From Eledone cirrhosa (taxonomy: Eukaryota): 64,000 nt of DNA. The notes under the pieces were generated by a model, which saw only the letters and a list, made by a program, of their open reading frames with translations, did not search any database and was not told the origin of the DNA. Of the stretch, positions 1 to 23,213 are shown piece after piece. The position numbers and the translations under genes were made by a program. Within the stretch, counting starts at the first letter, position 1. Each line of letters starts with the position of its first letter. Location: positions 60,078,001-60,142,000 of the forward strand of contig OZ024745.1 in assembly GCA_964016885.1 (NCBI GenBank), written 5' to 3'.

Positions 1-755
1 GGAGTGAGAACCTCGACTTGGAGTGAGAACCTCGACTTGGAGTGAGAACCTCGACTTGGAGTGAGAACCTCGACTTGGAGTGAGAACCTCGACTTGGAGT
101 GAGAACCTCGACTTGGAGTGTAAACTGCGACTCTGAGTGAAAACCTCGACTTGGAGTGAGAACCTCGACTTGGAGTGAAAACCTCGACTTGGAGTGAGAA
201 CCTCGACTTGGAGTGAAAACCTCGACTTGGAGTGAAAACCTCGACTTGGAGTGAAAACCTCGACTTGGAGTGAGAACCTCGACTTGGAGTGAAAACCTCG
301 ACTTGGAGTGAAAACCTCGACTTGGAGTGAGAACCTCGACTTGGAGTGAGAACCTCGACTTGGAGTGAGAACCTCGACTTGGAGTGAGAACCTCGACTTG
401 GAGTGTAAACTGCGACTCTGAGTGAAAACCTCGACTTGGAGTGAGAACCTCGACTTGGAGTGAAAACCTCGACTTGGAGTGAGAACCTCGACTTGGAGTC
501 AGAACCTCGACTTGGAGTCAGAACCTCGACTTGGAGTCAGAACCTCGACTTGGAGTCAGAACCTCGACTTGGAGTCAGAACCTCGACTTGGAGTGAAAAC
601 CTCGACTTGGAGTGAGAACCTCGACTTGGAGTGAGAACCTCGACTTGGAGTGAAAACCTCGACTTGGAGTGAGAACCTCTACTTGGAGTGAAAACCTCGA
701 CTTGGAGTGTAAACTGCGACTTGGAGTGAGAACCTCGACTTGGAGTGAAAACCTC

Positions 756-1211
756 GACTTGAAGTGTAAACTGCGACTTGGAGTGTAAACTGCGACTTGG
801 AGTGTAATGTACAACTTGGAGCATAATGTACAACTTGGAGCATAATGTACGACTTGGAGCATAATGTACGACTTAGAGTGTAATGTAGGACTTAGAGTGT
901 AATGTAGGACTTAGAGTGTAATGTAGGACTTAGAGTGTAATGTAGGACTTAGAGTGTAATGTAGGACTAGGAGCATAATGTAGGACTAGGAGCATAATGT
1001 ACGACTTGGAGTGTAATGTAGGACTTGGAGTGTAATGTAGGACTTGGAGTGTAAACTGCGAGTTGAAATATAAATTGCGACTTGGATTGTAAACCTTGAC
1101 TTGCAGTGTATTGAACAACTTGGGGTGTATACTGCGGCTTGGAGTGTAAACTGCGGCTCCGAATATAAACTACGACTTGCAGTGTCATATATGACTCTGA
1201 GTGAAAACCTC
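756..1211. repeat. Divergent-monomer cassette 1 (24 x 19 bp; reference copy)
   Basis: Order: 2x ..GTGTAAACTGC, 1x ..GTGTAATGTAC, 3x ..GCATAATGTAC, 5x GACTTAGAGTGTAATGTAG, 2x GACTAGGAGCATAATGTAS, 2x GACTTGGAGTGTAATGTAG, 1x ..GTGTAAACTGC, 7 single-copy monomers, then GACTCTGAGTGAAAACCTC. Confidence 0.95.
1180..1199. other. Imperfect 20-bp palindrome CAGTGTCATATATGACTCTG at the cassette right end, present in every complete cassette
   Basis: Perfect 12-bp core GTCATATATGAC (1184-1195), extended by CAG/CTG after one T-T mismatch. The core reads GTCATATCTGAC in five copies. Confidence 0.85.
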
Positions 1212-2104
1212 GACTTGGAGTGAAAACCTCGACTTGGAGTCAGAACCTCGACTTGGAGTGAGAACCTCGACTTGGAGTGAGAACCTCGACTTGGAGTGAA
1301 AACCTCGACTTGGAGTGAGAACCTCGACTTGGAGTGAGAACCTCGACTTGGAGTGAGAACCTCGACTTGGAGTGAAAACCTCGACTTGGAGTGAGAACCT
1401 CGACTTGGAGTGAAAACCTCGACTTGGAGTGAAAACCTCGACTTGGAGTGAAAACCTCGACTTGGAGTGAAAACCTCGACTTGGAGTGAGAACCTCGACT
1501 TGGAGTGAAAACCTCGACTTGGTGTGAGAACCTCGACTTGGAGTGAGAACCTCGACTTGGAGTGAGAACGTCGACTTGGAGTGAGAACGTCGACTTGGAG
1601 TGAGAACCTCGACTTGGAGTGAAAACCTCGACTTGGAGTGAAAACCTCGACTTGGAGTGAGAACCTCGACTTGGAGTGAGAACCTCGACTTGGAGTGAAA
1701 ACCTCGACTTGGAGTGAGAACCTCGACTTGGAGTGAGAACCTCGACTTGGAGTGAAAACCTCGACTTGGAGTGAGAACCTCGACTTGGAGTGAGAACCTC
1801 GACTTGGAGTGAAAACCTCGACTTGGAGTGAAAACTTCGACTTGGAGTGAGAACCTCGACTTGGAGTGAGAACCTCGACTTGGAGTGAGAACCTCGACTT
1901 GGAGTGAAAACCTCGACTTGGTGCGAGAACCTCGACTTGGAGTTAAAACCTCGACTTGGAGTGAGAACCTCGACTTTGAGTGAGAACCTCGACTTGGAGT
2001 GAAAACCTCGACTTGGAGTGAGAACCTCTACTTGGAGTGAAAACCTCGACTTGGAGTGTAAACTGCGACTTGGAGTGAGAACCTCGACTTGGAGTGAAAA
2101 CCTC

Positions 2105-2560
2105 GACTTGGAGTGTAAACTGCGACTTGGAGTGTAAACTGCGACTTGGAGTGTAATGTACAACTTGGAGCATAATGTACAACTTGGAGCATAATGTACG
2201 ACTTGGAGCATAATGTACGACTTAGAGTGTAATGTAGGACTTAGAGTGTAATGTAGGACTTAGAGTGTAATGTAGGACTTAGAGTGTAATGTAGGACTTA
2301 GAGTGTAATGTAGGACTAGGAGCATAATGTAGGACTAGGAGCATAATGTACGACTTGGAGTGTAATGTAGGACTTGGAGTGTAATGTAGGACTTGGAGTG
2401 TAAACTGCGAGTTGAAATATAAATTGCGACTTGGATTGTAAACCTTGACTTGCAGTGTATTGAACAACTTGGGGTGTATACTGCGGCTTGGAGTGTAAAC
2501 TGCGGCTCCGAATATAAACTACGACTTGCAGTGTCATATATGACTCTGAGTGAAAACCTC
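2105..2560. repeat. Cassette 2
   Basis: Same monomer order; offset 1349 bp = 71 monomers from cassette 1. Confidence 0.95.
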
Positions 2561-5220
2561 GACTTGGAGTGAGAACCTCGACTTGGAGTGAGAACCTCGA
2601 CTTGGAGTGAAAACCTCGACTTGGAGTGAGAACCTCGACTTGGAGTGAAAACCTCGACTTGGAGTGAAAACCTCGACTTGGAGTGAGAACCTCGACTTGG
2701 AGTGAAAACCTCGACTTGGAGTGAAAACCTCGACTTGGAGTGAGAACCTCGACTTGGAGTGAAAACCTCGACTTGGAGTGAGAACCTCGACTTGGAGTGA
2801 AAACCTCGACTTGGAGTGAAAACCTCGACTTGGAGTGAGAACCTCGACTTGGAGTGAGAACCTCGACTTGGAGTGAAAACCTCGACTTGGAGTGAGAACC
2901 TCGACTTGGAGTGAGAACCTCGACTTGGAGTGAGAACCTCGACTTGGAGTGAAAACCTCGACTTGGAGTGAAAACCTCGACTTGGATTGAGAACCTCGAC
3001 TTGGAGTGAAAACCTCGACTTGGAGTGAGAACCTCGACTTGGAGTGAGAACCTCGACTTGGAGTGAGAACCTCGACTTGAAGTGAGAACCTCGACTTGGA
3101 GTGAGAACCTCGACTTGGAGTGAGAACCTCGACTTGGAGTGAAAACTTCGACTTGGAGTGAGAACCTCGACTTGGAGTGAGAACCTCGACTTGGAGTGAG
3201 AACCTCGACTTGGAGTGAGAACCTCGACTTGGAGTGATAACCTCGACTTGGAGTGAGAACCTCGACTTGGAGTGAGAACCTCGACTTGGAGTGAAAACCT
3301 CGACTTGGAGTGAGAACCTCGACTTGGAGTGAAAACCTCGACTTGGAGTGAGAACCTCGACTTGGAGTGAAAACCTCGACTTGGAGTGAGAACCTCGACT
3401 TGGAGTGAAAACCTCGACTTGGAGTGAGAACCTCAACTTGGAGTGAGAACCTCGACTTTGAGTGAAAACCTCGACTTGGAGAGAGAACCTCGACTTGGAG
3501 TGAAAACCTCGACTTTGAGTGAAAACCTCGACTTGGAGTGAGAACCTCGACTTGGAGTGAGAACCTCGACTTGGAGTGAGAACCTCGACTTGGAGTGAGA
3601 ACCTCGACTTGGAGTGAGAACCTCGACTTGGAGTGAGAACCTCGACTTGGAGTGAGAACCTCGACTTGGAGTGAAAACCTCGACTTGGAGTGAGAACCTC
3701 GACTTGGAGTGAAAACCTCGACTTGGAGTGAGAACCTCGACTTGGAGTGAAAACCTCGACTTGGAGTGAGAACCTCGACTTGGAGTGAAAACCTCGACTT
3801 GGAGTGAAAACCTCGACTTGGAGTGAGAACCTCGAATTGGAGTGAAAACCTCGACTTGGAGTGAGAACCTCGACTTGGAGTGAGAACCTCGACTTTGAGT
3901 GAAAACCTCGACTTGGAGAGAGAACCTCGACTTGGAGAGAGAACCTCGACTTGGAGTGAAAACCTCGACTTTGAGTGAAAACCTCGACTTGGAGTGAAAA
4001 CCTCGACTTGGAGTGAGAACCTCGACTTGGAGTGGAAACCTCGACTTGGAGTGGAAACCTCGACTTGGAGTGAAAACCTCGACTTGGAGTGAGAACCTCG
4101 ACTTGGAGTGATAACCTCGACTTGGAGTGAGAACCTCGACTTGGAGTGAGAACCTCGACTTGGAGTGAAAACCTCGACTTGGAGTGAAAACCTCGACTTG
4201 GAGTGAAAACCTCGACTTGGAGTGAGAACCTCGACTTGGAGTGAGAACCTCGACTTGGAGTGACAACCTCGACTTGGAGTGGAAACCTCGACTTGGAGTG
4301 AAAACCTCGACTTGGAGTGAAAACCTCGACTTGGAATGAGAACCTCGACTTGGAGTGAGAACCTCGACTTGGAGTGAAAACCTCGACTTGGAGTGAGAAC
4401 CTTGACTTGGAGTGAGAACCTCGACTTGGAGTGAAAACCTCGACTTGGAGTGAGAACCTCGACTTGGAGTGAGAACCTCGACTTGGAGTGAGAACCTCGA
4501 CGTGGAGTGAGAACCTCGACTTGGAGTGAGAACCTCGACTTGGAGTGAAAACCTCGACTTGGAGTGAGAACCTCGACTTGGAGTGAAAACCTCGACTTGG
4601 TGTGAGAACCTCGACTTGGAGTGAGAACCTCGACTTGGAGTGAAAACCTCGACTTGGAGTGAAAACCTCGACTTGGAGTGAAAACCTCGACTTGGAGTGA
4701 AAACCTCGACTTGGAGTGAGAACCTCGACTTGCAGTGAAAACCTCGACTTGGAGTGAGAACCTCGACTTGGAGTGAGAACCTCGATTTGCAGTGAAAACC
4801 TCGACTTGGAGTGAGAACCTCGACTTGCAGTGAAAACCTCGACTTGGAGTGAGAACCTCGACTTGCAGTGAAAACCTCGACTTGGAGTGAGAACCTCGAC
4901 TTGGAGTGAGAACCTCGACTTGGAGTGAGAACCTCGACGTGGAGTGAAAACTTCGACTTGGAGTGAGAACCTCGACTTGGAGTGAGAACCTCGACTTGGA
5001 GTGAGAACCTCGACTTGGAGTGAAAACCTCGACTTGGTGCGAGAACCTCGACTTGGAGTTAAAACCTCGACTTGGAGTGAGAACCTCGACTTTGAGTGAG
5101 AACCTCGACTTGGAGTGAAAACCTCGACTTGGAGTGAGAACCTCTACTTGGAGTGAAAACCTCGACTTGGAGTGTAAACTGCGACTTGGAGTGAGAACCT
5201 CGACTTGGAGTGAAAACCTC

Positions 5221-5676
5221 GACTTGGAGTGTAAACTGCGACTTGGAGTGTAAACTGCGACTTGGAGTGTAATGTACAACTTGGAGCATAATGTACAACT
5301 TGGAGCATAATGTACGACTTGGAGCATAATGTACGACTTAGAGTGTAATGTAGGACTTAGAGTGTAATGTAGGACTTAGAGTGTAATGTAGGACTTAGAG
5401 TGTAATGTAGGACTTAGAGTGTAATGTAGGACTAGGAGCATAATGTAGGACTAGGAGCATAATGTACGACTTGGAGTGTAATGTAGGACTTGGAGTGTAA
5501 TGTAGGACTTGGAGTGTAAACTGCGAGTTGAAATATAAATTGCGACTTGGATTGTAAACCTTGACTTGCAGTGTATTGAACAACTTGGGGTGTATACTGC
5601 GGCTTGGAGTGTAAACTGCGGCTCCGAATATAAACTACGACTTGCAGTGTCATATATGACTCTGAGTGAAAACCTC
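5221..5676. repeat. Cassette 3
   Basis: Same order; offset 164 monomers. Confidence 0.95.
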
Positions 5677-8600
5677 GACTTGGAGTGAAAACCTCGACTT
5701 GGAGTGAGAACCTCGACTTGGAGTGAGAACCTCGACTTGGAGTGAAAACCTCGACTTGGAGTGAGAACCTCGACTTGGAGTGAAAACCTCGACTTGGAGT
5801 GAAAACCTCGACTTGGAGTGAGAACCTCGACTTGGAGTGAAAACCTCGACTTGGAGTGAGAACCTCGACTTGGAGTGAAAACCTCGACTTGGAGTGAAAA
5901 CCTCGACTTGGAGTGAGAACCTCGACTTGGAGTGAGAACCTCGACTTGGAGTGAAAACCTCGACTTGGAGTGAGAACCTCGACTTGGAGTGAGAACCTCG
6001 ACTTGGAGTGAGAACCTCGACTTGGAGTGAAAACCTCGACTTGGAGTGAAAACCTCGACTTGGATTGAGAACCTCGACTTGGAGTGAAAACCTCGACTTG
6101 GAGTGAGAACCTCGACTTGGAGTGAGAACCTCGACTTGGAGTGAGAACCTCGACTTGAAGTGAGAACCTCGACTTGGAGTGAGAACCTCGACTTGGAGTG
6201 AGAACCTCGACTTGGAGTGAAAACTTCGACTTGGAGTGAGAACCTCGACTTGGAGTGAGAACCTCGACTTGGAGTGAGAACCTCGACTTGGAGTGAGAAC
6301 CTCGACTTGGAGTGATAACCTCGACTTGGAGTGAGAACCTCGACTTGGAGTGAGAACCTCGACTTGGAGTGAAAACCTCGACTTGGAGTGAGAACCTCGA
6401 CTTGGAGTGAAAACCTCGACTTGGAGTGAGAACCTCGACTTGGAGTGAAAACCTCGACTTGGAGTGAGAACCTCGACTTGGAGTGAAAACCTCGACTTGG
6501 AGTGAGAACCTCGACTTGGAGTGAGAACCTCGACTTTGAGTGAAAACCTCGACTTGGAGAGAGAACCTCGACTTGGAGTGAAAACCTCGACTTTGAGTGA
6601 AAACCTCGACTTGGAGTGAGAACCTCGACTTTGAGTGAGAACCTCGACTTGGAGTGAGAACCTCGACTTGGAGTGAGAACCTCGACTTGGAGTGAGAACC
6701 TCGACTTGGAGTGAGAACCTCGACTTGGAGTGAGAACCTCGACTTGGAGTGAGAACCTCGACTTGGAGTGGAAACCTCGACTTGGAGTGAGAACCTCGAC
6801 TTGGAGTGAAAACCTCGACTTGGAGTGAGAACCTCGACTTGGAGTGAAAACCTCGACTTGGAGTGAGAACCTCGACTTGGAGTGAAAACCTCGACTTGGA
6901 GTGAGAACCTCGACTTGGAGTGAAAACCTCGACTTGGAGTGAGAACCTCGACTTGGAGTGAAAACCTCGACTTGGAGTGAGAACCTCGACTTGGAGTGAG
7001 AACCTCGACTTTGAGTGAAAACCTCGACTTGGAGAGAGAACCTCGACTTGGAGAGAGAACCTCGACTTGGAGTGAAAACCTCGACTTTGAGTGAAAACCT
7101 CGACTTGGAGTGAAAACCTCGACTTGGAGTGAGAACCTCGACTTGGAGTGGAAACCTCGACTTGGAGTGGAAACCTCGACTTGGAGTGAAAACCTCGACT
7201 TGGAGTGAGAACCTCGACTTGGAGTGATAACCTCGACTTGGAGTGAGAACCTCGACTTGGAGTGAGAACCTCGACTTGGAGTGAAAACCTCGACTTGGAG
7301 TGAAAACCTCGACTTGGAGTGAAAACCTCGACTTGGAGTGAGAACCTCGACTTGGAGTGAGAACCTCGACTTGGAGTGACAACCTCGACTTGGAGTGGAA
7401 ACCTCGACTTGGAGTGAAAACCTCGACTTGGAGTGAAAACCTCGACTTGGAATGAGAACCTCGACTTGGAGTGAGAACCTCGACTTGGAGTGAAAACCTC
7501 GACTTGGAGTGAGAACCTTGACTTGGAGTGAGAACCTCGACTTGGAGTGAAAACCTCGACTTGGAGTGAGAACCTCGACTTGGAGTGAGAACCTCGACTT
7601 GGAGTGAGAACCTCGACGTGGAGTGAGAACCTCGACTTGGAGTGAGAACCTCGACTTGGAGTGAAAACCTCGACTTGGAGTGAGAACCTCGACTTGGAGT
7701 GAAAACCTCGACTTGGTGTGAGAACCTCGACTTGGAGTGAGAACCTCGACTTGGAGTGAGAACCTCGACTTGGAGTGAGAACCTCGACTTGCAGTGAAAA
7801 CCTCGACTTGGAGTGAGAACCTCGACTTGGAGTGAAAACCTCGACTTGCAGTGAAAACCTCGACTTGGAGTGAGAACCTCGACTTGGAGTGAAAACCTCG
7901 ACTTGGAGTGAAAACCTCGACTTGGAGTGAAAACCTCGACTTGGAGTGAGAACCTCGACTTGGAGTGAGAACCTCGACTTGGAGTGAGAACCTCGACTTG
8001 GAGTGAGAACCTCGACTTGGAGTGAGAACCTCGACTTGGAGTGTAAACTGCGACTCTGAGTGAAAACCTCGACTTGGAGTGAGAACCTCGACTTGGAGTG
8101 AAAACCTCGACTTGGAGTGAGAACCTCGACTTGGAGTGAGAACCTCGACTTGGAGTGAAAACCTCGACTTGGAGTGAAAACCTCGACTTGGAGTGAAAAC
8201 CTCGACTTGGAGTGAGAACCTCGACTTGGAGTGAAAACCTCGACTTGGAGTGAAAACCTCGACTTGGAGTGAGAACCTCGACTTGGAGTGAGAACCTCGA
8301 CTTGGAGTGAGAACCTCGACTTGGAGTGAGAACCTCGACTTGGAGTGTAAACTGCGACTCTGAGTGAAAACCTCGACTTGGAGTGAGAACCTCGACTTGG
8401 AGTGAAAACCTCGACTTGGAGTGAGAACCTCGACTTGGAGTCAGAACCTCGACTTGGAGTCAGAACCTCGACTTGGAGTCAGAACCTCGACTTGGAGTCA
8501 GAACCTCGACTTGGAGTCAGAACCTCGACTTCGAGTGAAAACCTCGACTTGGAGTGAAAACCTCGACTTGGAGTGAGAACCTCGACTTGGAGTGAGAACC

Positions 8601-8716
8601 TCGACTTGGAGTGAAAACCTCGACTTGGAGTGAGAACCTCTACTTGGAGTGAAAACCTCGACTTGGAGTGTAAACTGCGACTTGGAGTGAGAACCTCGAC
8701 TTGGAGTGAAAACCTC

Positions 8717-9172
8717 GACTTGGAGTGTAAACTGCGACTTGGAGTGTAAACTGCGACTTGGAGTGTAATGTACAACTTGGAGCATAATGTACAACTTGGA
8801 GCATAATGTACGACTTGGAGCATAATGTACGACTTAGAGTGTAATGTAGGACTTAGAGTGTAATGTAGGACTTAGAGTGTAATGTAGGACTTAGAGTGTA
8901 ATGTAGGACTTAGAGTGTAATGTAGGACTAGGAGCATAATGTAGGACTAGGAGCATAATGTACGACTTGGAGAGTAATGTAGGACTTGGAGTGTAATGTA
9001 GGACTTGGAGTGTAAACTGCGAGTTGAAATATAAATTGCGACTTGGATTGTAAACCTTGACTTGCAGTGTATTGAACAACTTGGGGTGTATACTGCGGCT
9101 TGGAGTGTAAACTGCGGCTCCGAATATAAACTACGACTTGCAGTGTCATATATGACTCTGAGTGAACACTTC
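8717..9172. repeat. Cassette 4 (GAGAGTAAT / GAACACTTCAAC variant)
   Basis: Offset 184 monomers; diagnostic variants shared with cassettes 17 and 20. Confidence 0.95.
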
Positions 9173-10008
9173 AACTTGGAGTGAAAACCTCGACTTGGAG
9201 TGAGAACCTCGACTTGGAGTGAGAACCTCGACTTGGAGTGAAAACCTCGACTTGGAGTGAAAACCTCGACTTGGAGTGAAAACCTCGACTTGGAGTGAGA
9301 ACCTCGACTTGGAGTGAGAACCTCGACTTGGAGTGAGAACCTCGACTTGGAGTGAAAACCTCGACTTGGAGTGAGAACCTCGACTTGGAGTGAGAACCTC
9401 GACTTGGAGTGAGAACCTCGACTTGGAGTGAAAACCTCGACTTGGAGTGAGAACCTCGACTTGGAGTGAAAACCTCGACTTGGAGTGAAAACCTCGACTT
9501 GGAGTGAAAACCTCGACTTGGAGTGAAAACCTCGACTTGGAGTGAGAACCTCGACTTGGAGTGAAAACCTCGACTTGGAGTGAGAACCTCGACTTGGAGT
9601 GAGAACCTCGACTTGGAGTGAGAACGTCGACTTGGAGTGAGAACGTCGACTTGGAGTGAGAACCTCGACTTGGAGTGAAAACCTCGACTTGGAGTGAAAA
9701 CCTCGACTTGGAGTGAGAACCTCGACTTGGAGTGAGAACCTCGACTTGGAGTGAAAACCTCGACTTGGAGTGAGAACCTCGACTTGGAGTGAGAACCTCG
9801 ACTTGGAGTGAAAACCTCGACTTGGAGTGAAAACTTCGACTTGGAGTGAGAACCTCGACTTTGAGTGAGAACCTCGACTTGGAGTGAAAACCTCGACTTG
9901 GAGTGAGAACCTCTACTTGGAGTGAAAACCTCTACTTGGAGTGAAAACCTCGACTTGGAGTGTAAACTGCGACTTGGAGTGAGAACCTCGACTTGGAGTG
10001 AAAACCTC

Positions 10009-10464
10009 GACTTGGAGTGTAAACTGCGACTTGGAGTGTAAACTGCGACTTGGAGTGTAATGTACAACTTGGAGCATAATGTACAACTTGGAGCATAATG
10101 TACGACTTGGAGCATAATGTACGACTTAGAGTGTAATGTAGGACTTAGAGTGTAATGTAGGACTTAGAGTGTAATGTAGGACTTAGAGTGTAATGTAGGA
10201 CTTAGAGTGTAATGTAGGACTAGGAGCATAATGTAGGACTAGGAGCATAATGTACGACTTGGAGTGTAATGTAGGACTTGGAGTGTAATGTAGGACTTGG
10301 AGTGTAAACTGCGAGTTGAAATATAAATTGCGACTTGGATTGTAAAGCTTGACTTGCAGTGTATTGAACAACTTGGGGTGTATACTGCGGCTTGGAGTGT
10401 AAACTGCGGCTCCGAATATAAACTACGACTTGCAGTGTCATATCTGACTCTGAGTGAAAACCTC
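10009..10464. repeat. Cassette 5 (AAGCTT / CATATCTGAC variant)
   Basis: Offset 68 monomers; HindIII site at 10345; variants shared with cassettes 18, 19, 21 and 22. Confidence 0.95.
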
Positions 10465-12421
10465 GACTTGGAGTGAAAACCTCGACTTGGAGTGAGAACC
10501 TCGACTTGGAGTGAGAACCTCGACTTGGAGTGAAAACCTCGACTTGGAGTGAGAACCTCGACTTGGAGTGAAAACCTCGACTTGGAGTGAAAACCTCGAC
10601 TTGGAGTGAGAACCTCGACTTGGAGTGAGAACCTCGACTTGGAGTGAGAACCTCGACTTGGAGTGAAAACCTCGACTTGGAGTGAGAACCTCGACTTGGA
10701 GTGAGAACCTCGACTTGGAGTGAGAACCTCGACTTGGAGTGAAAACCTCGACTTGGAGTGAGAACCTCGACTTGGAGTGAGAACCTCGACTTGGAGTGAA
10801 AACCTCGACTTGGAGTGAAAACCTCGACTTGGAGTGAAAACCTCGACTTGGAGTGAGAACCTCGACTTGGAGTGAAAACCTCGACTTGGAGTGAGAACCT
10901 CGACTTGGAGTGAGAACCTCGACTTGGAGTGAGAACCTCGACTTGGAGTGAAAACCTCGACTTGGAGTGAGAACCTCGACTTGGAGTGAGAACCTCGACT
11001 TGGAGTGAGAACGTCGACTTGGAGTGAGAACGTCGACTTGGAGTGAGAACCTCGACTTGGAGTGAAAACCTCGACTTGGAGTGAAAACCTCGACTTGGAG
11101 TGAGAACCTCGACTTGGAGTGAGAACCTCGACTTGGAGTGAAAACCTCGACTTGGAGTGAGAACCTCGACTTGGAGTGAGAACCTCGACTTGGAGTGAAA
11201 ACCTCGACTTGGAGTGAGAACCTCGACTTGGAGTGAGAACCTCGACTTGGAGTGAGAACCTCGACTTGGAGTGAAAACCTCGACTTGGAGTGAAAACTTC
11301 GACTTGGAGTGAGAACCTCGACTTGGAGTGAGAACCTCGACTTGGAGTGAGAACCTCGACTTGGAGTGAAAACCTCGACTTGGTGCGAGAACCTCGACTT
11401 GGAGTTAAAACCTCGACTTGGAGTGAGAACCTCGACTTGGAGTGAAAACCTCGACTTGGAGTGAGAACCTCGACTTGGAGTGAGAACCTCGACTTGGAGT
11501 GGAAACCTCGACTTGGAGTGAAAACCTCGACTTGGAGTCAGAACCTCGACTTTGAGTGAAAACCTCGACTTGGGGTGAGAACCTCGACTTGGAGTGAAAA
11601 CCTCGACTTGGAGTGAGAACCTCGACTTGGAGTGAAAACCTCGACTTGGAGTGAAAACCTCGACTTGGAGTGAGAACCTCGACTTGGAGTGGAAACCTCG
11701 ACTTGTAGTGAAAACCTCGACTTGGAGTGAAAACCTCGACTTGGAGTGAAAACCTCGACTTTGAGTGAGAACCTCGACTTGGAGTGAGAACCTCGACTTG
11801 GAGTGAGAACCTCGACTTGGAGTGAGAACCTCGACTTGGAGTGAGAACCTCGACTTGGAGTGAAAACCTCGACTTGGAGTGAGAACCTCGACTTGGAGTG
11901 AAAACCTCGACTTGGAGTGAAAACCTCGACTTGGAGTGAAAACCTCGACTTGGAGTGAGAACCTCGACTTGGAGTGAGAACCTCGACTTGGAGTGACAAC
12001 CTCGACTTGGAGTGAAAACCTCGACTTGGAGTGAGAACCTCGACTTGGAGTGAGAACCACGACTTGGAGTGAAAACCTCGACTTGGAGTGAGAACCTCGA
12101 CTTGGAGTGAAAACCTCGACTTGGAGGGAAAACCTCGACTTGGAGTGAGAACCTCGACTTGGAGTGAGAACCTCGACTTGGAGTGAGAACCTCGACTTGG
12201 AGTGAGAACCTCGACTTGGAGTGAAAACCTCGACTTGGAGTGAAAACCTCGACTTGGAGTGAAAACCTCGACTTGGAGTGAGAACCTCGACTTGGAGTGA
12301 GAACCTCGACTTGGAGTGAAAACCTCGACTTGGAGTGAGAACCTCTACTTGGAGTGAAAACCTCGACTTGAAGTGTAAACTGCGACTTGGAGTGAGAACC
12401 TCGACTTGGAGTGAAAACCTC

Positions 12422-12877
12422 GACTTGGAGTGTAAACTGCGACTTGGAGTGTAAACTGCGACTTGCAGTGTAATGTACAACTTGGAGCATAATGTACAAC
12501 TTGGAGCATAATGTACGACTTGGAGCATAATGTACGACTTAGAGTGTAATGTAGGACTTAGAGTGTAATGTAGGACTTAGAGTGTAATGTAGGACTTAGA
12601 GTGTAATGTAGGACTTAGAGTGTAATGTAGGACTTGGAGCATAATGTAGGACTAGGAGCATAATGTACGACTTGGAGTGTAATGTAGGACTTGGAGTGTA
12701 ATGTAGGACTTGGAGTGTAAACTGCGAGTTGAAATATAAATTGCGACTTGGATTGTAAACCTTGACTTGCAGTGTATTGAACAACTTGGGGTGTATACTG
12801 CGGCTTGGAGTGTAAACTGCGGCTCCGAATATAAACTACGACTTGCAGTGTCATATATGACTCTGAGTGAAAACCTC
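12422..12877. repeat. Cassette 6 (TTGCAGTGTAATGTAC variant)
   Basis: Offset 127 monomers; variants shared with cassettes 23, 25 and 26. Confidence 0.95.
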
Positions 12878-14112
12878 GACTTGGGGTGAAAACCTCGACT
12901 TGGAGTGAGAACCTCGACTTGGAGTGAGAACCTCGACTTGGAGTGAAAACCTCGACTTGGAGTGAGAACCTCGACTTGGAGTGAAAACCTCGACTTGGAG
13001 TGAAAACCTCGACTTGGAGTGAGAACCTCGACTTGGAGTGAGAACCTCGACTTGGAGTGAAAACCTCGACTTGGAGTGAAAACCTCGACTTGGAGTGAAA
13101 ACCTCGACTTGGAGTGAAAACCTCGACTTGGAGTGAAAACCTCGACTTGGAGTGAGAACCTCGATTTGGAGTGAGAACCTCGACTTGGAGTGAGAACCTC
13201 GACTTGGAGTGAGAACCTCGATTTGGAGTGAGAACCTCGATTTGGAGTGAGAACCTCGACTTGGAGTGAAAACCTCGACTTGGAGTGAGAACCTCGACTT
13301 GGAGTGAAAACCTCGACTTGGAGTGAAAACCTCGACTTGGAGTGAAAACCTCGACTTGGAGTGAAAACCTCGACTTGGAGTGAAAACCTCGACTTGGAGT
13401 GAGAACCTCGACTTGGAGTGAAAACCTCGACTTGGAGTGAGAACCTCGACTTGGAGTGAAAACCTCGACTTGGAGTGAGAACCTCGACTTGGAGTGAAAA
13501 CCTCGACTTGGAGTGAGAACCTCGACTTGGAGTGAAAACCTCGACTTGGAGTGAAAACCTCGACTTGGAGTGAAAACCTCGACTTGGAGTGAGAACCTCG
13601 ACTTGGAGTGAGAACCTCGATTTGGAGTGAGAACCTCGACTTGGAGTGAGAACCTCGACTTGGAGTGAGAACCTCGACTTGGAGTGAGAACCTCGACTTG
13701 GAGTGAGAACCTCGACTTGGAGTGAAAACCTCGACTTGGAGTGAGAACCTCGACTTGGAGTGAAAACCTCGACTTGGAGTGAGAACCTCGACTTGGAGTG
13801 AAAACCTCGACTTGGAGTGAGAACCTCGACTTGGAGTGAGAACCTCGACTTGGAGTGAAAACCTCGACTTGGAGTGAGAACCTCGACTTGGAGTGAAAAC
13901 CTCGACTTGGAGTGAGAACCTCGACTTGGAGTGAGAACCTCGACTTGGAGTGAAAACCTCGACTTGGAGTGAAAACCTCGACTTGGAGTGAAAACCTCGA
14001 CTTGGAGTGAGAACCTCGACTTGGAGTGAAAACCTCGACTTGGAGTGAGAACCTCGACTTGGAGTGAAAACCTCGACTTGGAGTGAGAACCTCGACTTGG
14101 AGTGAAAACCTC

Positions 14113-14568
14113 GACTTGGAGTGTAAACTGCGACTTGGAGTGTAAACTGCGACTTGGAGTGTAATGTACAACTTGGAGCATAATGTACAACTTGGAGCAT
14201 AATGTACGACTTGGAGCATAATGTACGACTTAGAGTGTAATGTAGGACTTAGAGTGTAATGTAGGACTTAGAGTGTAATGTAGGACTTAGAGTGTAATGT
14301 AGGACTTAGAGTGTAATGTAGGACTAGGAGCATAATGTAGGACTAGGAGCATAATGTACGACTTGGAGTGTAATGTAGGACTTGGAGTGTAATGTAGGAC
14401 TTGGAGTGTAAACTGCGAGTTGAAATATAAATTGCGACTTGGATTGTAAACCTTGACTTGCAGTGTATTGAACAACTTGGGGTGTATACTGCGGCTTGGA
14501 GTGTAAACTGCGGCTCCGAATATAAACTACGACTTGCAGTGTCATATATGACTCTGAGTGAAAACCTC
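14113..14568. repeat. Cassette 7 (lacks the usual upstream leader)
   Basis: Offset 89 monomers; no CTCTAC monomer or lone TAAACTGC monomer upstream. Confidence 0.93.
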
Positions 14569-17266
14569 GACTTGGAGTGAAAACCTCGACTTGGAGTGAG
14601 AACCTCGACTTGGAGTGAGAACCTCGACTTGGAGTGAGAACCTCGACTTGGAGTGAAAACCTCGACTTGGAGTGAAAACCTCGACTTGGAGTGAAAACCT
14701 CGACTTGGAGTGAAAACCTCGACTTGGAGTGAGAACCTCGACTTGGAGTGAAAACCTCGACTTGGAGTGAAAACCTCGACTTGGAGTGAGAACCTCGACT
14801 TGGAGTGAGAACCTCGATTTGGAGTGAAAACCTCGACTTGGAGTGAGAACCTCGACTTGGAGTGAGAACCTCGACTTGGAGTGAGAACATCGACTTGGAG
14901 TGAGAACCTCGACTTGGAGTGAGAACCTCGACTTGGAGTGAGAACCTCGACTTGGAGTGAGAACCTCGACTTGGAGTGAGAACCTCGACTTGGAGTGAGA
15001 ACCTCGACTTGGAGTGAAAACCTCGACTTGGAGTGAGAACCTCGACTTGGAGTGAGAACCTCGACTTGGAGTGAGAACCTCGACTTGGAGTGAAAACTTC
15101 GACTTGGAGTGAGAACCTCGACTTGGAGTGAGAACCTCGACTTGGAGTGAGAACCTCGACTTGGAGTGGAAACCTCGACTTGGAGTGAGAACCTCGACTT
15201 GGAGTGAGAACCTCGACTTGGAGTGAGAACCTCGACTTGGAGTGAGAACCTCGACTTGGAGTGAAAACCTCGACTTGGAGTGAGAACCTCGACTTGGAGT
15301 GAAAACCTCGACTTGGAGTGAGAACCTCGACTTGGAGTGAAAACCTCGACTTGGAGTGAGAACCTCGACTTGGAGTGAGAACCTCGACTTTGAGTGAAAA
15401 CCTCGACTTGGAGAGAGAACCTCCACTTGGAGTGAGAACCTCGACTTTGAGTGAAAACCTCGACTTGGAGTGAGAACCTCGACTTTGAGTGAAAACCTCG
15501 ACTTGGAGTGAGAACCTCGACTTGGAGTGAGAACCTCGACTTGGAGTGAGAACCTCGACTTGGAGTGGAAACCTCGACTTGGAGTGAGAACCTCGACTTG
15601 GAGTGAAAACCTCGACTTGGAGTGAGAACCTCGACTTGGAGTGAAAACCTCGACTTGGAGTGAAAACCTCGACTTGGAGTGAAAACCTCGACTTGGAGTG
15701 AGAACCTCGACTTGGAGTGAAAACCTCGACTTGGAGTGAGAACCTCGACTTGGAGTGAAAACCTCGACTTGGAGTGAGAACCTCGACTTGGAGTGAAAAC
15801 CTCGACTTGGAGTGAGAACCTCGACTTGGAGTGAGAACCTCGACTTTGTGTGAAAACCTCGACTTGGAGAGAGAACCTCGACTTGGAGTGAGAACCTCGA
15901 CTTGGAGTGAAAACCTCGACTTGGAGTGAGAACCTCGACTTTGAGTGAAAACCTCGACTTGGAGTGAGAACCTCGACTTGGAGTGAAAACCTCGACTTGG
16001 AGTGAAAACCTCGACTTGGAGTGAGAACCTCGACTTGGAGTGGAAACCTCGACTTGGAGTGAGAACCTCGACTTGGAGTGAAAACCTCGACTTGGAGTGA
16101 GAACCTCGACTTGGAGTGAGAACCTCGACTTGGAGTGAGAACCTCGACTTGGAGTGAGAACCTCGACTTGGAGTGAGAACCTCGACTTGGAGTGAGAACC
16201 TCGACTTGGAGTGAAAACCTCGACTAGGAGTGAGAACCTCGACTTGGAGTGAGAACCTCGACTTGGAGTGAGAACCTCGACTTGGAGTGAGAACCTCGAC
16301 TTGGAGTGAGAACCTCGACTTGCAGTGAAAACCTCGACTTGGAGTGAGAACCTCGACTTGCAGTGAAAACCTCGACTTGGAGTGAGAACCTCGACTTGCA
16401 GTGAAAACCTCGACTTGGAGTGAGAACCTCGACTTGGAGTGAAAACCTCGACTTGCAGTGAAAACCTCGACTTGGAGTGAGAACCTCGACTTGGAGTGAA
16501 AACCTCGACTTGGAGTGAAAACCTCGACTTGGAATGAAGACCTCGACTTGGAGTGAGAACCTCGACTTGGAGTGAGAACCTCGACTTGGAGTGAGAACCT
16601 CGACTTGGAGTGAGAACCTCGACTTGGAGTGTAAACTGCGACTCTGAGTGAAAACCTCGACGTGGAGTAAGAACCTCGACTTGGAGTGAAAACCTCGACT
16701 TGGAGTGAGAACCTCGACTTGGAGTGAGAACCTCGACTTGGAGTGAAAACCTCGACTTGGAGTGAAAACCTCGACTTGGAGTGAAAACCTCGACTTGGAG
16801 TGAGAACCTCGACTTGGAGTGAAAACCTCAACTTGGAGTGAAAACCTCGACTTGGAGTGAGAACCTCGACTTGGAGTGAGAACCTCGACTTGGAGTGTAA
16901 ACTGCGACTCTGAGTGAAAACCTCGACTTGGAGTGAGAACCTCGACTTGGAGTGAAAACCTCGACTTGGAGTGAGAACCTCGACTTGGAGTCAGAACCTC
17001 GACTTGGAGTCAGAACCTCAACTTGGAGTCAGAACCTCGACTTGGAGTCAGAACCTCGACTTGGAGTCAGAACCTCGACTTGGAGTGAAAACCTCGACTT
17101 GGAGTGAAAACCTCGACTTGGAGTGAGAACCTCGACTTGGAGTGAGAACCTCGACTTGGAGTGAAAACCTCGACTTGGAGTGAGAACCTCTACTTGGAGT
17201 GAAAACCTCGACTTGGAGTGTAAACTGCGACTTGGAGTGAGAACCTCGACTTGGAGTGAAAACCTC

Positions 17267-17722
17267 GACTTGGAGTGTAAACTGCGACTTGGAGTGTAAA
17301 CTGCGACTTGGAGTGTAATGTACAACTTGGAGCATAATGTACAACTTGGAGCATAATGTACGACTTGGAGCATAATGTACGACTTAGAGTGTAATGTAGG
17401 ACTTAGAGTGTAATGTAGGACTTAGAGTGTAATGTAGGACTTAGAGTGTAATGTAGGACTTAGAGTGTAATGTAGGACTAGGAGCATAATGTAGGACTAG
17501 GAGCATAATGTACGACTTGGAGTGTAATGTAGGACTTGGAGTGTAATGTAGGACTTGGAGTGTAAACTGCGAGTTGAAATATAAATTGCGACTTGGATTG
17601 TAAACCTTGACTTGCAGTGTATTGAACAACTTGGGGTGTATACTGCGGCTTGGAGTGTAAACTGCGGCTCCGAATATAAACTACGACTTGCAGTGTCATA
17701 TATGACTCTGAGTGAAAACCTC
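17267..17722. repeat. Cassette 8
   Basis: Offset 166 monomers. Confidence 0.95.
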
Positions 17723-20700
17723 GACTTGGAGTGAAAACCTCGACTTGGAGTGAGAACCTCGACTTGGAGTGAGAACCTCGACTTGGAGTGAAAACCTCGA
17801 CTTGGAGTGAGAACCTCGACTTGGAGTGAAAACCTCGACTTGGAGTGAAAACCTCGACTTGGAGTGAGAACCTCGACTTGGAGTGAAAACCTCGACTTGG
17901 AGTGAGAACCTCGACTTGGAGTGAAAACCTCGACTTGGAGTGAAAACCTCGACTTGGAGTGAGAACCTCGACTTGGAGTGAGAACCTCGACTTGGAGTGA
18001 GAACCTCGACTTGGAGTGAGAACCTCGACTTGGAGTGAGAACCTCGACTTGGAGTGAGAACCTCGACTTGGAGTGAGAACCTCGACTTGGAGTGAGAACC
18101 TCGACTTGGAGTGAAAACCTCGACTTGGAGTGAGAACCTCGACTTGGAGTGAGAACCTCGACTTGGAGTGAGAACCTCGACTTGGAGTGAAAACTTCGAC
18201 TTGGAGTGAGAACCTCGACTTGGAGTGAGAACCTCGACTTGGAGTGAAAACTTCGACTTGGAGTGAGAACCTCGACTTGGAGTGAGAACCTCGACTTGGA
18301 GTGAGAACCTCGACTTGGAGTGAGAACCTCGACTTGGAGTGAGAACCTCGACTTGGAGTGAGAACCTCGACTTGGAGTGAGAACCTCGACTTGGAGTGAA
18401 AACCTCGACTTGGAGTGAGAACCTCGACTTGGAGTGAAAACCTCGACTTGGAGTGAGAACCTCGACTTGGAGTGAAAACCTCGACTTGGAGTGAGAACCT
18501 CGACTTGGAGTGAGAACCTCGACTTGGAGTGAGAACCTCGACTTGGAGTGAGAACCTCGACTTTGAGTGAAAACCTCGACTTGGAGAGAGAACCTCCACT
18601 TGGAGTGAGAACCTCGACTTTGAATGAAAACCTCGACTTGGAGTGAGAACCTCGACTTTGAGTGAAAACCTCGACTTGGAGTGAGAACCTCGACTTGGAG
18701 TGAGAACCTCGACTTGGAGTGAGAACCTCGACTTGGAGTGGAAACCTCGACTTGGAGTGAGAACCTCGACTTGGAGTGAAAACCTCGACTTGGAGTGAGA
18801 ACCTCGACTTGGAGTGAAAACCTCGACTTGGAGTGAAAACCTCGACTTGGAGTGAAAACCTCGACTTGGAGTGAGAACCTCGACTTGGAGTGAAAACCTC
18901 GACTTGGAGTGAGAACCTCGACTTGGAGTGAAAACCTCGACTTGGAGTGAGAACCTCGACTTGGAGTGAAAACCTCGACTTGGAGTGAGAACCTCGACTT
19001 GGAGTGAGAACCTCGACTTTGAGTGAAAACCTCGACTTGGAGAGAGAACCTCGACTTGGAGTGAGAACCTCGACTTTGAGTGAAAACCTCGACTTGGAGT
19101 GAGAACCTCGACTTTGAGTGAAAACCTCGACTTGGAGTGAGAACCTCGACTTGGAGTGAAAACCTCGACTTGGAGTGAAAACCTCGACTTGGAGTGAGAA
19201 CCTCGACTTGGAGTGGAAACCTCGACTTGGAGTGAGAACCTCGACTTGGAGTGAAAACCTCGACTTGGAGTGAGAACCTCGACTTGGAGTGAGAACCTCG
19301 ACTTGGAGTGAGAACCTCGACTTGGAGTGAGAACCTCGACTTGGAGTGAGAACCTCGACTTGGAGTGATAACCTCGACTTGGAGTGAGAACCTCGACTTG
19401 GAGTGAGAACCACGACTTGGAGTGAAAACCTCGACTTGGAGTGAAAACCTCGACTTGGAGTGAAAACCTCGACTTGGAGTGAAAACCTCGACTTGGAGTG
19501 AGAACCTCGACTTGGAGTGACAACCTCGACTTGGAGTGAAAACCTCGACTTGGAGTGAAAACCTCGACTTGGAGTGAAAACCTCGACTTGGAGTGAGAAC
19601 CTCGACTTGGAGTGAGAACCTCGACTTGGAGTGAAAACCTCGACTTGGAGTGAGAACCTCGACTTGGAGTGAGAACCTCGACTTGGAGGGAAAACCTCGA
19701 CTTGGAGTGAGAACCTCGACTTGGAGTGAGAACCTCGACTTGGAGTGAGAACCTCGACGTGGAGTGAGAACCTCGACTTGGAGTGAGAACCTCGACTTGG
19801 AGTGAAAACCTCGACTTGGAGTGAGAACCTCGACTTGGAGTGAAAACCTCGACTTGGAGTGAGAACCTCGACTTGGAGTGAGAACCTCGACTTGGAGTGA
19901 AAACCTCGACTTGGAGTGAAAACCTCGACTTGGAGTGAAAACCTCGACTTGGAGTGAAAACCTCGACTAGGAGTGAGAACCTCGACTTGGAGTGAGAACC
20001 TCGACTTGGAGTGAGAACCTCGACTTGGAGTGAGAACCTCGACTTGGAGTGAGAACCTCGACTTGGAGTGAGAACCTCGACTTGCAGTGAAAACCTCGAC
20101 TTGGAGTGAGAACCTCGACTTGCAGTGAAAACCTCGACTTGGAGTGAGAACCTCGACTTGCAGTGAAAACCTCGACTTGGAGTGAGAACCTCGACTTGGA
20201 GTGAAAACCTCGACTTGCAGTGAAAACCTCGACTTGGAGTGAGAACCTCGACTTGGAGTGAAAACCTCGACTTGGAGTGAAAACCTCGACTTGGAATGAA
20301 GACCTCGACTTGGAGTGAGAACCTCGACTTGGAGTGAGAACCTCGACTTGGAGTGAGAACCTCGACTTGGAGTGAGAACCTCGACTTGGAGTGAGAACCT
20401 CGACTTGGAGTGTAAACTGCGACTCTGAGTGAAAACCTCGACGTGGAGTGAGAACCTCGACTTGGAGTGAAAACCTCGACTTGGAGTGAGAACCTCGACT
20501 TGGAGTGAGAACCTCGACTTGGAGTGAGAACCTCGACTTGGAGTGTAAACTGCGACTCTGAGTGAAAACCTCGACTTGGAGTGAGAACCTCGACTTGGAG
20601 TGAAAACCTCGACTTGGAGTGAGAACCTCGACTTGGAGTCAGAACCTCGACTTGGAGTCAGAACCTCGACTTGGAGTCAGAACCTCGACTTGGAGTCAGA

Positions 20701-20990
20701 ACCTCGACTTGGAGTCAGAACCTCGACTTGGAGTGAAAACCTCGACTTGGAGTGAAAACCTCGACTTGGAGTGAGAACCTCGACTTGGAGTCAGAACCTC
20801 GACTTGGAGTGAAAACCTCGACTTGGAGTGAAAACCTCGACTTGGAGTGAGAACCTCGACTTGGAGTGAGAACCTCGACTTGGAGTGAAAACCTCGACTT
20901 GGAGTGAGAACCTCTACTTGGAGTGAAAACCTCGACTTGGAGTGTAAACTGCGACTTGGAGTGAGAACCTCGACTTGGAGTGAAAACCTC

Positions 20991-21446
20991 GACTTGGAGT
21001 GTAAACTGCGACTTGGAGTGTAAACTGCGACTTGGAGTGTAATGTACAACTTGGAGCATAATGTACAACTTGGAGCATAATGTACGACTTGGAGCATAAT
21101 GTACGACTTAGAGTGTAATGTAGGACTTAGAGTGTAATGTAGGACTTAGAGTGTAATGTAGGACTTAGAGTGTAATGTAGGACTTAGAGTGTAATGTAGG
21201 ACTAGGAGCATAATGTAGGACTAGGAGCATAATGTACGACTTGGAGTGTAATGTAGGACTTGGAGTGTAATGTAGGACTTGGAGTGTAAACTGCGAGTTG
21301 AAATATAAATTGCGACTTGGATTGTAAACCTTGACTTGCAGTGTATTGAACAACTTGGGGTGTATACTGCGGCTTGGAGTGTAAACTGCGGCTCCGAATA
21401 TAAACTACGACTTGCAGTGTCATATATGACTCTGAGTGAAAACCTC
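20991..21446. repeat. Cassette 9
   Basis: Offset 196 monomers. Confidence 0.95.
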
Positions 21447-22757
21447 GACTTGGAGTGAAAACCTCGACTTGGAGTGAGAACCTCGACTTGGAGTGAGAAC
21501 CTCGACTTGGAGTGAAAACCTCGACTTGGAGTGAGAACCTCGACTTGGAGTGAAAACCTCGACTTGGAGTGAAAACCTCGACTTGGAGTGAGAACCTCGA
21601 CTTGGAGTGAAAATCTCGACTTGGAGTGAGAACCTCGACTTGGAGTGAAAACCTCGACTTGGAGTGAAAACCTCGACTTGGAGTGAGAACCTCGACTTGG
21701 AGTGAGAACCTCGATTTGGAGTGAAAACCTCGACTTGGAGTGAGAACCTCGACTTGCAGTGAAAACCTCGACTTGGAGTGAGAACCTCGACTTGCAGTGA
21801 AAACCTCGACTTAGAGTGAGAACCTCGACTTGGAGTGAAAACCTCGACTTGCAGTGAAAACCTCGACTTGGAGTGAGAACCTCGACTTGGAGTGAAAACC
21901 TCGACTTGGAGTGAAAACCTCGACTTGGAATGAAGACCTCGACTTGGAGTGAGAACCTCGACTTGGAGTGAGAACCTCGACTTGGAGTGAGAACCTCGAC
22001 TGGGAGTGAGAACCTCGACTTGGAGTGTAAACTGCGACTCTGAGTGAAAACCTCGACGTGGAGTGAGAACCTCGACTTGGAGTGAAAACCTCGACTTGGA
22101 GTGAGAACCTCGACTTGGAGTGAGAACCTCGACTTGGAGTGAAAACCTCGACTTGGAGTGAAAACCTCGACTTGGAGTGAAAACCTCGACTTGGAGTGAG
22201 AACCTCGACTTGGAGTGAAAACCTCGACTTGGAGTGAAAACCTCGACTTGGAGTGAGAACCTCGACTTGGAGTGAGAACCTCGACTTGGAGTGAGAACCT
22301 CGACTTGGAGTGTAAACTGCGACTCTGAGTGAAAACCTCGACTTGGAGTGAGAACCTCGACTTGGAGTGAAAACCTCGACTTGGAGTGAGAACCTCGACT
22401 TGGAGTCAGAACCTCGACTTGGAGTCAGAACCTCGACTTGGAGTCAGAACCTCGACTTGGAGTCAGAACCTCGACTTGGAGTCAGAACCTCGACTTGGAG
22501 TGAAAACCTCGACTTGGAGTGAAAACCTCGACTTGGAGTGAGAACCTCGACTTGGAGTCAGAACCTCGACTTGGAGTGAAAACCTCGACTTGGAGTGAAA
22601 ACCTCGACTTGGAGTGAGAACCTCGACTTGGAGTGAGAACCTCGACTTGGAGTGAAAACCTCGACTTGGAGTGAGAACCTCTACTTGGAGTGAAAACCTC
22701 GACTTGGAGTGTAAACTGCGACTTGGAGTGAGAACCTCGACTTGGAGTGAAAACCTC

Positions 22758-23213
22758 GACTTGGAGTGTAAACTGCGACTTGGAGTGTAAACTGCGACTT
22801 GGAGTGTAATGTACAACTTGGAGCATAATGTACAACTTGGAGCATAATGTACGACTTGGAGCATAATGTACGACTTAGAGTGTAATGTAGGACTTAGAGT
22901 GTAATGTAGGACTTAGAGTGTAATGTAGGACTTAGAGTGTAATGTAGGACTTAGAGTGTAATGTAGGACTAGGAGCATAATGTAGGACTAGGAGCATAAT
23001 GTACGACTTGGAGTGTAATGTAGGACTTGGAGTGTAATGTAGGACTTGGAGTGTAAACTGCGAGTTGAAATATAAATTGCGACTTGGATTGTAAACCTTG
23101 ACTTGCAGTGTATTGAACAACTTGGGGTGTATACTGCGGCTTGGAGTGTAAACTGCGGCTCCGAATATAAACTACGACTTGCAGTGTCATATATGACTCT
23201 GAGTGAAAACCTC
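22758..23213. repeat. Cassette 10
   Basis: Offset 93 monomers. Confidence 0.95.

What the first reader, a model, noticed from the sequence alone, without database searches (positions are those of the whole stretch)
756..1211. Polarised, fixed-order 24-monomer cassette punctuating the satellite 27 times at variable spacing
Seen: the cassette is made of the same 19-bp frame but steps through monomer classes in a fixed order. It moves from main-like, through locally repeated AT-rich monomers, to seven single-copy, most divergent monomers, then snaps back to the main monomer. Copies are almost identical while offsets vary: 71,164,184,68,127,89,166,196,93,141,144,94,148,71,170,179,69,93,240,69,93,130,150,113,93,152 monomers. 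Established: classical higher-order repeats such as primate alpha satellite have roughly fixed unit length, and satellite or telomere array edges show graded divergence. Inference: the unit is a constant cassette plus an elastic homogeneous tract. It may be an old array edge captured once and re-amplified, or a conserved functional landmark in the array.
Basis: partly seen in the sequence, partly recalled or inferred. Interest (0 to 1): 0.75.

Follow-up and report, generated by a model that had tools for sequence, protein, structure and literature searches.

The report
Fossil repeat core in elastic satellite
A 23-unit block recurs intact at irregular spacing through half of a million-base array of a 19-base repeat, and it matches one part of a longer repeat unit found at the array's edges, so it is likely a leftover of that older unit, copied along passively while a likely younger repeat grew between the copies, rather than a working landmark.

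Summary
Observation confirmed: 27 cassettes, all 26 spacings as listed. The window lies in a 1.02-Mb array on C5 that holds all 187 exact probe matches in the genome. The cassette's monomer order matches the last 13 monomers of a 91-monomer, 1650-bp higher-order unit at the left edge; related long units form the right edge. Single-base steps link old to main monomers. Tracts are mosaics of shared blocks, and spacings repeat through a 62-kb duplication. No sign of function: private substitution rate cassette/flank 0.97 (CI 0.5-1.8), second estimate 0.72 (0.43-1.16); a 424-kb domain and a 68-kb patch on C1 lack the cassette; 275 junctions look like excision scars. A neutral homology-dependent simulation gives intact cassettes at such spacing. 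The claimed divergence gradient is absent. Best reading: layered satellite expansion with a passenger relic of the old unit (0.8). The scan noted passenger cassettes in other satellites of this genome, none for this DNA.

The parts
1..64000 (+). 19-bp satellite, part of a 1.02-Mb single-orientation array (G000:C5:59287907-60308160); main monomer 1 = window 1-19, main monomer 2 = 172-190 (one base apart)
761..1197 (+). cassette 1 (23 monomers, classes D D T I C C A A A A U J C F F K L W M N P Q X)
799..1045 (+). front half of cassette 1: old monomers T, C, U, C, F with later run-ups (I, C, A x4, J, F); the run of A varies among copies
1046..1197 (+). single-copy core K L W M N P Q X; K, L, P and X are each one base from the matching monomer of the old unit's tail
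1198..1216 (+). monomer B: main-type body with the variant junction that follows X in the old unit
115..152 (+). Y-B pair, putative cassette-excision scar (first of 20 in the window; others start at 400, 8038, 8342, 16626, 16892, 20407, 20540, 22022, 22307, 29223, 29508, 31978, 32206, 32433, 40071, 40375, 47728, 48032, 63211)
1..34560 (+). right-hand copy (window part) of a ~62-kb, 25-unit tandem block duplication; the left copy lies upstream of the window
2110..2546 (+). cassette 2
5226..5662 (+). cassette 3
8722..9158 (+). cassette 4
10014..10450 (+). cassette 5
12427..12863 (+). cassette 6
14118..14554 (+). cassette 7
17272..17708 (+). cassette 8
20996..21432 (+). cassette 9
22763..23199 (+). 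cassette 10
25442..25878 (+). cassette 11
28178..28614 (+). cassette 12
29964..30400 (+). cassette 13
32813..33211 (+). cassette 14 (21 monomers, two A lost)
34124..34560 (+). cassette 15
37354..37790 (+). cassette 16
40755..41191 (+). cassette 17
42066..42502 (+). cassette 18
43833..44269 (+). cassette 19
48412..48829 (+). cassette 20 (22 monomers, one F lost)
49704..50140 (+). cassette 21
51471..51907 (+). cassette 22
53941..54377 (+). cassette 23
56789..57225 (+). cassette 24
58936..59372 (+). cassette 25
60703..61139 (+). cassette 26
63591..64000 (+). cassette 27 (runs 27 bases past the window end)

Best explanation
The cassette matches the 13-monomer tail of a 91-monomer repeat unit seen at the array's edge and is likely a passive relic of that older unit, which likely stays whole because it is too unlike the main monomer to recombine with it, while the tracts between cassettes likely stretch and shrink by homology-dependent duplication and deletion. 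Steps: (1) shown: long complex units of cassette-type monomers form both edges, and short units of cassette plus a few old monomers follow on the left; (2) inferred: one lineage lost the other ~78 monomers, leaving the tail; (3) inferred from single-base links and order of appearance: the main monomers arose from the old hub monomer D through intermediates (e or u, V, then 2, then 1) in the spacer and expanded; (4) shown: tracts are mosaics of shared blocks and whole runs of units are duplicated, up to 62 kb; inferred: out-of-register exchanges fall in tracts, in-register ones pass through cassettes unseen; (5) inferred: a rare join between the first and last cassette monomer at a 4-bp shared word excised the cassette, and the scar was amplified too.
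For: Left edge: three successive units 1650 bp apart, 91 monomers, ending in the cassette's order. The ~38-monomer segment in front of that tail occurs at both edges (markers 8-10 left, 1 in the transition, 21-29 right) and 0 times in the 930-kb interior; in the old layers it is as frequent as the cassette core (6 left, 29 right), so the core was not preferentially kept there. Core diversity 0.015-0.028 at edges and transition against 0.003-0.010 inside. Monomer steps D-e, e-u, e-V, u-2, V-2, 2-1 are one base each; exact first appearance from the left is D, a, e, V, 2, u, 1. Cassette versus main monomer: 67% in-phase identity, longest exact run 12 bp; 0 of 92 clean tract jumps have an overlap of 12 bp or less, against 13.5% of random tract pairs (biased upward by greedy matching). 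145 tract jumps but no junction through the core of 189 inner cassettes; 9 such internal junctions among the 18 cores of the left transition, where 36% of spacer monomers are old types against 2.4% inside. Neutral simulation with a homology rule: 0 broken cassettes, unit-length CV 0.35-0.86 (observed 0.36 window, 0.63 inner domain); without the rule 25 broken junctions per 150 events (12 runs per setting). Private substitutions 16 in 41.2 kb of cassette and 35 in 87.5 kb of flank, ratio 0.97, CI 0.50-1.80 (130 of 189 cassettes entered, 96 pairs). 424 kb (22,352 monomers) of C5 and 68 kb on C1 hold no cassette. 275 Y-B junctions carry the variant junction of X-B; Y shares 18 bases with D and 5 with X; 14 of 28 in the cassette-free domain follow the 2-D-1-2 context that precedes cassettes inside, and 27 of 28 there are followed by a rare variant also seen after one X-B. 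Homology-directed, phase-preserving indels and conversion are measured in Arabidopsis centromeres (10.1101/2025.06.02.657473, passages).
Against: All five rate estimates, which overlap in data, fall at or below 1 (0.97, 0.83, 0.76, 0.56, 0.72); none is significant and conversion inflates the tract (65 of 110 tract singletons are common variant monomers), but constraint of up to about twofold is not excluded. Selection against broken cassettes would also give 0 breaks. The simulation builds in the homology rule, so it shows sufficiency only. Direction of time rests on parsimony within one assembly, with no outgroup. Most Y-B pairs inside follow a run of monomer 1, not the cassette's upstream context, and Y also occurs in the old unit, so the scar reading is inferred. 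A run labelled organism B holds the derived cassette but not the old segment, which an 'edges are older' history explains only by low coverage or loss.
Confidence: 0.8

Rival explanations
1. The cassette is a selected landmark (protein-binding, nucleosome-phasing or centromere-seeding site) kept intact and spread through a working domain of the array.
For: 189 of 189 inner cassettes keep the core; the core is the only part of the old unit present in edges, transition and inner domain; rate ratios lean below 1; the cassette-bearing right domain has the longest exact matches (median 38 monomers against 17 in the cassette-free domain), so it is the most recently amplified; the cassette is AT-richer (GC 0.41 against 0.50).
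Against: No significant rate deficit; unit length 39-839 monomers inside plus one spacer of 22,352; putative scars (275) outnumber X-B junctions (192); family confined to one array and one cassette-free patch; no Rfam match; folds worse than 98 of 100 shuffles.
Confidence: 0.1
2. The cassette is a decayed array edge with graded divergence that was captured once into the young array and re-amplified.
For: Cassette-type monomers do form both edges and are ancestral.
Against: No monotone gradient; the order is that of an internal segment of a repeated 91-monomer unit; the physical ends of the array are other monomers; intermediate units show the tract growing between existing cassettes, not a capture.
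Confidence: 0.05
3. The cassette is inserted copy by copy (mobile piece or reinserted DNA circle) at random places in a homogeneous array.
For: Irregular spacing; a patch of the satellite did reach another chromosome.
Against: All copies in one orientation and one array; constant flanks on both sides (a D or D-variant, 1, 2 context before most copies, B after); spacings inherited in blocks.
Confidence: 0.03
4. The pattern is an assembly artefact.
For: One 200-N gap lies in the array; the 62-kb duplication could be two haplotypes placed in tandem.
Against: Contigs of two runs of organism A (one sample, perhaps the assembled one) cover the cassette at 2.8-4.8 depth per assembled copy, and old-unit words at 3.0-4.6 in 3 of 4 pieces (1.2 in the fourth); phase is kept over 53,791 monomers.
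Confidence: 0.02

Closest known systems
Layered expansion of human alpha satellite (PMC4496801, passages read)
   Same: Older, more diverse monomer layers on both sides of a younger homogeneous core.
   Different: Here the monomer is 19 bp, the old layer is the more complex unit (91 monomers) and the young layer the simpler one, and a piece of the old unit rides inside the young layer 189 times; no centromere function is shown.
Heterogeneous higher-order repeats (Arabidopsis type; atlas 10.64898/2026.09.17.752431, section 6 read; mutation spectrum 10.1101/2025.06.02.657473, passages)
   Same: Non-periodic duplicated blocks, phase-preserving indels, conversion among monomers.
   Different: A divergent fixed block marks each unit, so the irregular duplications can be read by eye; sub-nucleosomal monomer.
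Tribolium madens TmSat2 'cassettes' in TmSat1 (PMC13081366, passages)
   Same: A minor block derived from the same ancestral unit interrupts the major satellite at irregular spacing with conserved junctions.
   Different: That cassette has an inversion and variable repeat number and occurs on all chromosomes, and its authors suggest a function; here there is no inversion, one locus, and the ancestral unit and loss products are visible.
Cascading alpha-satellite HORs (PMC11276891, passages)
   Same: Monomer types repeat within the unit; variants differ by monomer loss.
   Different: Those have a canonical unit length; the inner domain here has none.
Maize knob arrays (PMC13011684, abstract and outline only)
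   Same: [quoted passage not shown]
   Different: Knobs have known drive factors; nothing of the kind is known or tested here.

Membership tests
Tandem satellite DNA | Long head-to-tail array of one monomer family, non-coding | tested here: met
   53,791 monomers over 1.02 Mb, one orientation; no Rfam match in window 600-2700
Regimented (Willard-type) HOR | Fixed canonical unit length, each monomer type once | tested here: not met
   Inner units 39-839 monomers, CV 0.63; only the left edge has three units at a 1650-bp period
Heterogeneous HOR array | Paired blocks of near-identical contiguous monomers without long-range periodicity | tested here: met
   62-kb block pair differing at 25 monomers by substitution in 56.6 kb aligned; 70% of inner monomers lie in exact earlier copies of 20 or more monomers; TRASH itself was not run
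Layered-expansion array | Older, more divergent layers on both flanks of a younger core | tested here: met
   Shared old segment at both edges only; higher diversity, more singleton monomers and shorter matches at the edges
Layered-expansion array | Age order confirmed by an outgroup | tested here: inconclusive
   Run X4 (organism B) holds only the cassette and main monomers at low depth
Centromeric satellite | CENP-A occupancy | not testable with these tools
   No chromatin data
Centromeric satellite | Present on most chromosomes (monotypic kind) | tested here: not met
   17,251 of 17,255 exact main-monomer probe matches are accounted for by the C5 array and one C1 patch; a chromosome-specific centromere is not excluded
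TmSat2-type cassette | Minor block from the same ancestral unit with conserved junctions | tested here: met
TmSat2-type cassette | Internal inversion (macro-dyad symmetry) | tested here: not met
   0 reverse matches for both probes
Cascading HOR | Canonical unit with repeated monomer types | tested here: not met
   Repeated types are present, but no canonical unit length exists once the tract is included

The most novel reading that the evidence does not exclude
The 8-monomer core is a conserved binding or chromatin landmark that outlived the collapse of a 91-monomer unit and two replacements of the spacer monomer, drives the most recent expansion of the array, and persists at about one copy in a second species; the array would then be a natural spacing series for testing what an old satellite motif does inside a new satellite.
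Probability: 0.08. Interest if true: 0.7.

Novelty: new variant of a known kind. Interest (0 to 1): 0.38.

Why it matters
If the neutral reading holds, one array records a whole turnover in order: complex old unit, reduced unit, birth of a new monomer in single-base steps, runaway spacer, and loss scar. It shows that an intact, conserved-looking cassette in a satellite needs no selection, which bears on functional claims made for such cassettes elsewhere, and the cassettes serve as rulers for measuring duplication and conversion rates across individuals. It does not reveal a new kind of element. It would matter more if chromatin data placed a protein on the core.

Tried and rejected
Divergence gradient within the cassette: absent. 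Structured RNA or hairpin: no Rfam match at E<=1 in window 600-2700; DNA fold z +1.83. Copies next to unique DNA elsewhere: none; all 130 scored matches of a 901-bp old-unit query lie in the C5 array (24 of 310 candidates scored). Expression: no RNA holder listed. RAD-seq runs X5, X6, X7 gave 0, 1 and 0 reads: no test. Cross-species conservation from run X4 (share 0.09): not accepted as evidence, see full report. Host gene in the flanks: 13 of the open frames listed were scanned and none passed a Pfam cut-off; an intronic position was not tested. The pooled total printed mixed in non-homologous unit pairs and was dropped; only units 84-107 (24 pairs) were used. A difference in mutation spectrum (5 of 21 transitions in cassettes, 50 of 110 in tracts) is not significant (p 0.09). 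Seven literature searches (listings only) showed no paper on this satellite or on cephalopod satellite structure; the atlas main text has no 'octopus' or 'cephalopod', but its supplementary table of 263 families was not seen and could hold this family.

Full report
Observation. The window is a single 19-bp satellite. 25 of 27 copies have full length with 0-2 substitutions; two lost monomers from internal runs. Monomer letters below are class labels assigned by frequency; the copy at 761-1197 defines them. Two parts of the description fail: the single-copy monomers are not the most divergent ones, and the tracts are mosaics of recurring variant blocks.

Context. The window is G000:C5:60078001-60142000 in a 3.0-Gb genome. 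Earlier unchecked notes call this genome octopus-like, and the flanks resemble octopus repeats as I recall them; I did not test the taxon. I fetched C5 59.26-60.34 Mb in full. The array runs from 59,287,907 to about 60,308,160 with one 200-N gap and ends abruptly in AT-rich DNA. All 187 exact matches of a cassette probe lie in it, and 17,251 of 17,255 matches of a main-monomer probe lie in it or in a 68-kb patch on C1. Five domains follow from left to right: old left (14 kb, no main monomer), transition (22 kb), cassette-free (424 kb), inner (508 kb, 189 cassettes, includes the window) and old right (52 kb).

Origin of the cassette. The left edge holds three successive units 1650 bp apart, of 91 monomers, with 10-, 14-, 16- and 18-bp monomers among them; each ends in 13 monomers in the cassette's order. 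Inward, units lose the first segment, then the middle one, and become 28-52 monomers of cassette plus old-type spacer; then tracts of the main monomers appear and lengthen. The right edge has the middle segment and the old alleles again, with short main-monomer tracts inside. The middle segment is found 0 times in the interior, and in the old layers it is as common as the cassette core, so units there lost either part. Core diversity is higher at the edges than inside. The main monomers link to the old hub monomer by one-base steps and appear in about that order from the left. That the edges are older is inferred by parsimony: both edges share what the 930 kb between them lacks.

Why intact, why irregular. 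The cassette is 67% identical in phase to the main monomers, with no exact run above 12 bp. A parse of the inner domain finds 145 out-of-register jumps in tracts and no junction through a core; only the ends are nibbled in about a dozen copies. In the transition domain, where 36% of spacer monomers are old types, 9 internal junctions occur among 18 cores. All 92 clean tract jumps show more than 12 bp of overlap, though greedy matching inflates this. A neutral duplication-deletion model with a homology rule leaves every cassette whole and gives CVs of 0.35-0.86 around the observed 0.36 and 0.63; without the rule cassettes break. The spacing series itself repeats: window 1-34560 is part of the second copy of a 62-kb, 25-unit duplication. 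Such phase-preserving indels and conversions have been measured in Arabidopsis (10.1101/2025.06.02.657473, passages).

Test for constraint. With partners chosen on flank structure only (130 of 189 cassettes, 96 pairs), private substitutions are 0.39 per kb in cassettes and 0.40 in flanks, ratio 0.97, CI 0.50-1.80; looser counts give 0.83 and 0.76; the 62-kb pair gives 2 against 16, ratio 0.56, CI 0.06-2.4. A context-based count gives 0.72, CI 0.43-1.16, with 65 of 110 tract events being common variants that conversion can supply. None is significant, all lean the same way, and they share data; strong constraint is excluded, weak constraint is not.

Dispensability. One spacer has grown to 22,352 monomers, and the C1 patch (3602 monomers) has no core monomer. 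275 Y-B pairs carry the two-base variant junction otherwise seen after the cassette's last monomer; Y equals the first cassette monomer up to a 4-bp word shared with the last one; half of those in the cassette-free domain stand in the context that precedes cassettes. I read them as descendants of a precise excision; this is inferred, and most inner Y-B pairs have another upstream context.

Reads. Contigs of two runs from one sample of organism A cover cassette and old unit at roughly even depth per assembled copy, which argues against an artefact but may be the assembled sample. Run X4, labelled organism B, covers the whole cassette at depth 4.3-4.6 with two alleles that occur together in only 5 of 189 assembled inner copies, at the left border of the inner domain, and lacks the old middle segment. 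This is either a relative with about one cassette or a trace of DNA from an individual with another dominant haplotype; I could not tell which and use it for neither side.

Comparison. The array works like a layered-expansion satellite (PMC4496801, passages) with heterogeneous higher-order blocks (10.64898/2026.09.17.752431, passages and section 6). It is not a regimented or cascading HOR (PMC11276891, passages). Similar block structure occurs outside centromeres in maize knobs (PMC13011684, abstract). A centromere role is untested. Seven searches (listings only) showed no description of this satellite; no supplement was read.

Verdict. Real and well described; most likely a passenger relic of an older higher-order unit (0.8). 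New variant of a known kind, with an unusually complete record of turnover in one array; interest 0.38.

Noticed in passing
G000:C1:279407892-279476329 (L105-L112): A 68-kb cassette-free patch of the same satellite, with 72 Y-B pairs at irregular spacing and its own variant set (longest exact match to C5 only 18 monomers). It starts at a 200-N gap after an 11/33-bp satellite and joins a 20-bp AT-rich satellite without a gap; that satellite also fills the stretches sampled up to 279.61 Mb.
   Followed up: partly
G000:C5:59323852-59748300 (L027-L040, L074-L102): 424-kb cassette-free domain with its own variant monomers and local periods near 646-684 bp; in effect one spacer of 22,352 monomers.
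   Followed up: partly
G000:C5 about 59836000-59850600 (L049-L051): A local run of near-regular units of 56-63 monomers (about 1.15 kb): the cassette system can become a regimented repeat for a short stretch.
   Followed up: no
window 41192-54377: In-window duplication of units of 69 and 93 monomers followed by 240 or 130; the 240-monomer unit is the 130-type tract joined to the 179-type tract.
   Followed up: partly
L119:2442-4565 (-): 708-codon open frame about 54 kb right of the array with a weak C-terminal GIY-YIG match below the Pfam cut-off; possibly a Penelope-like element (recalled architecture, untested).
   Followed up: no
L112:6350-7200: The 20-bp satellite changes orientation twice within about 600 bp of its junction with the 19-bp patch.
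   Followed up: no
L019 (G000:C5:60322001-60332000): A 310-bp tandem repeat 14-24 kb right of the array.
   Followed up: no
G000:C5 about 59780000-59820000 (L044-L047): Singleton monomers rise to 18-27 per 20 kb around the N gap against 0-3 further right: an older patch or lower consensus quality.
   Followed up: no
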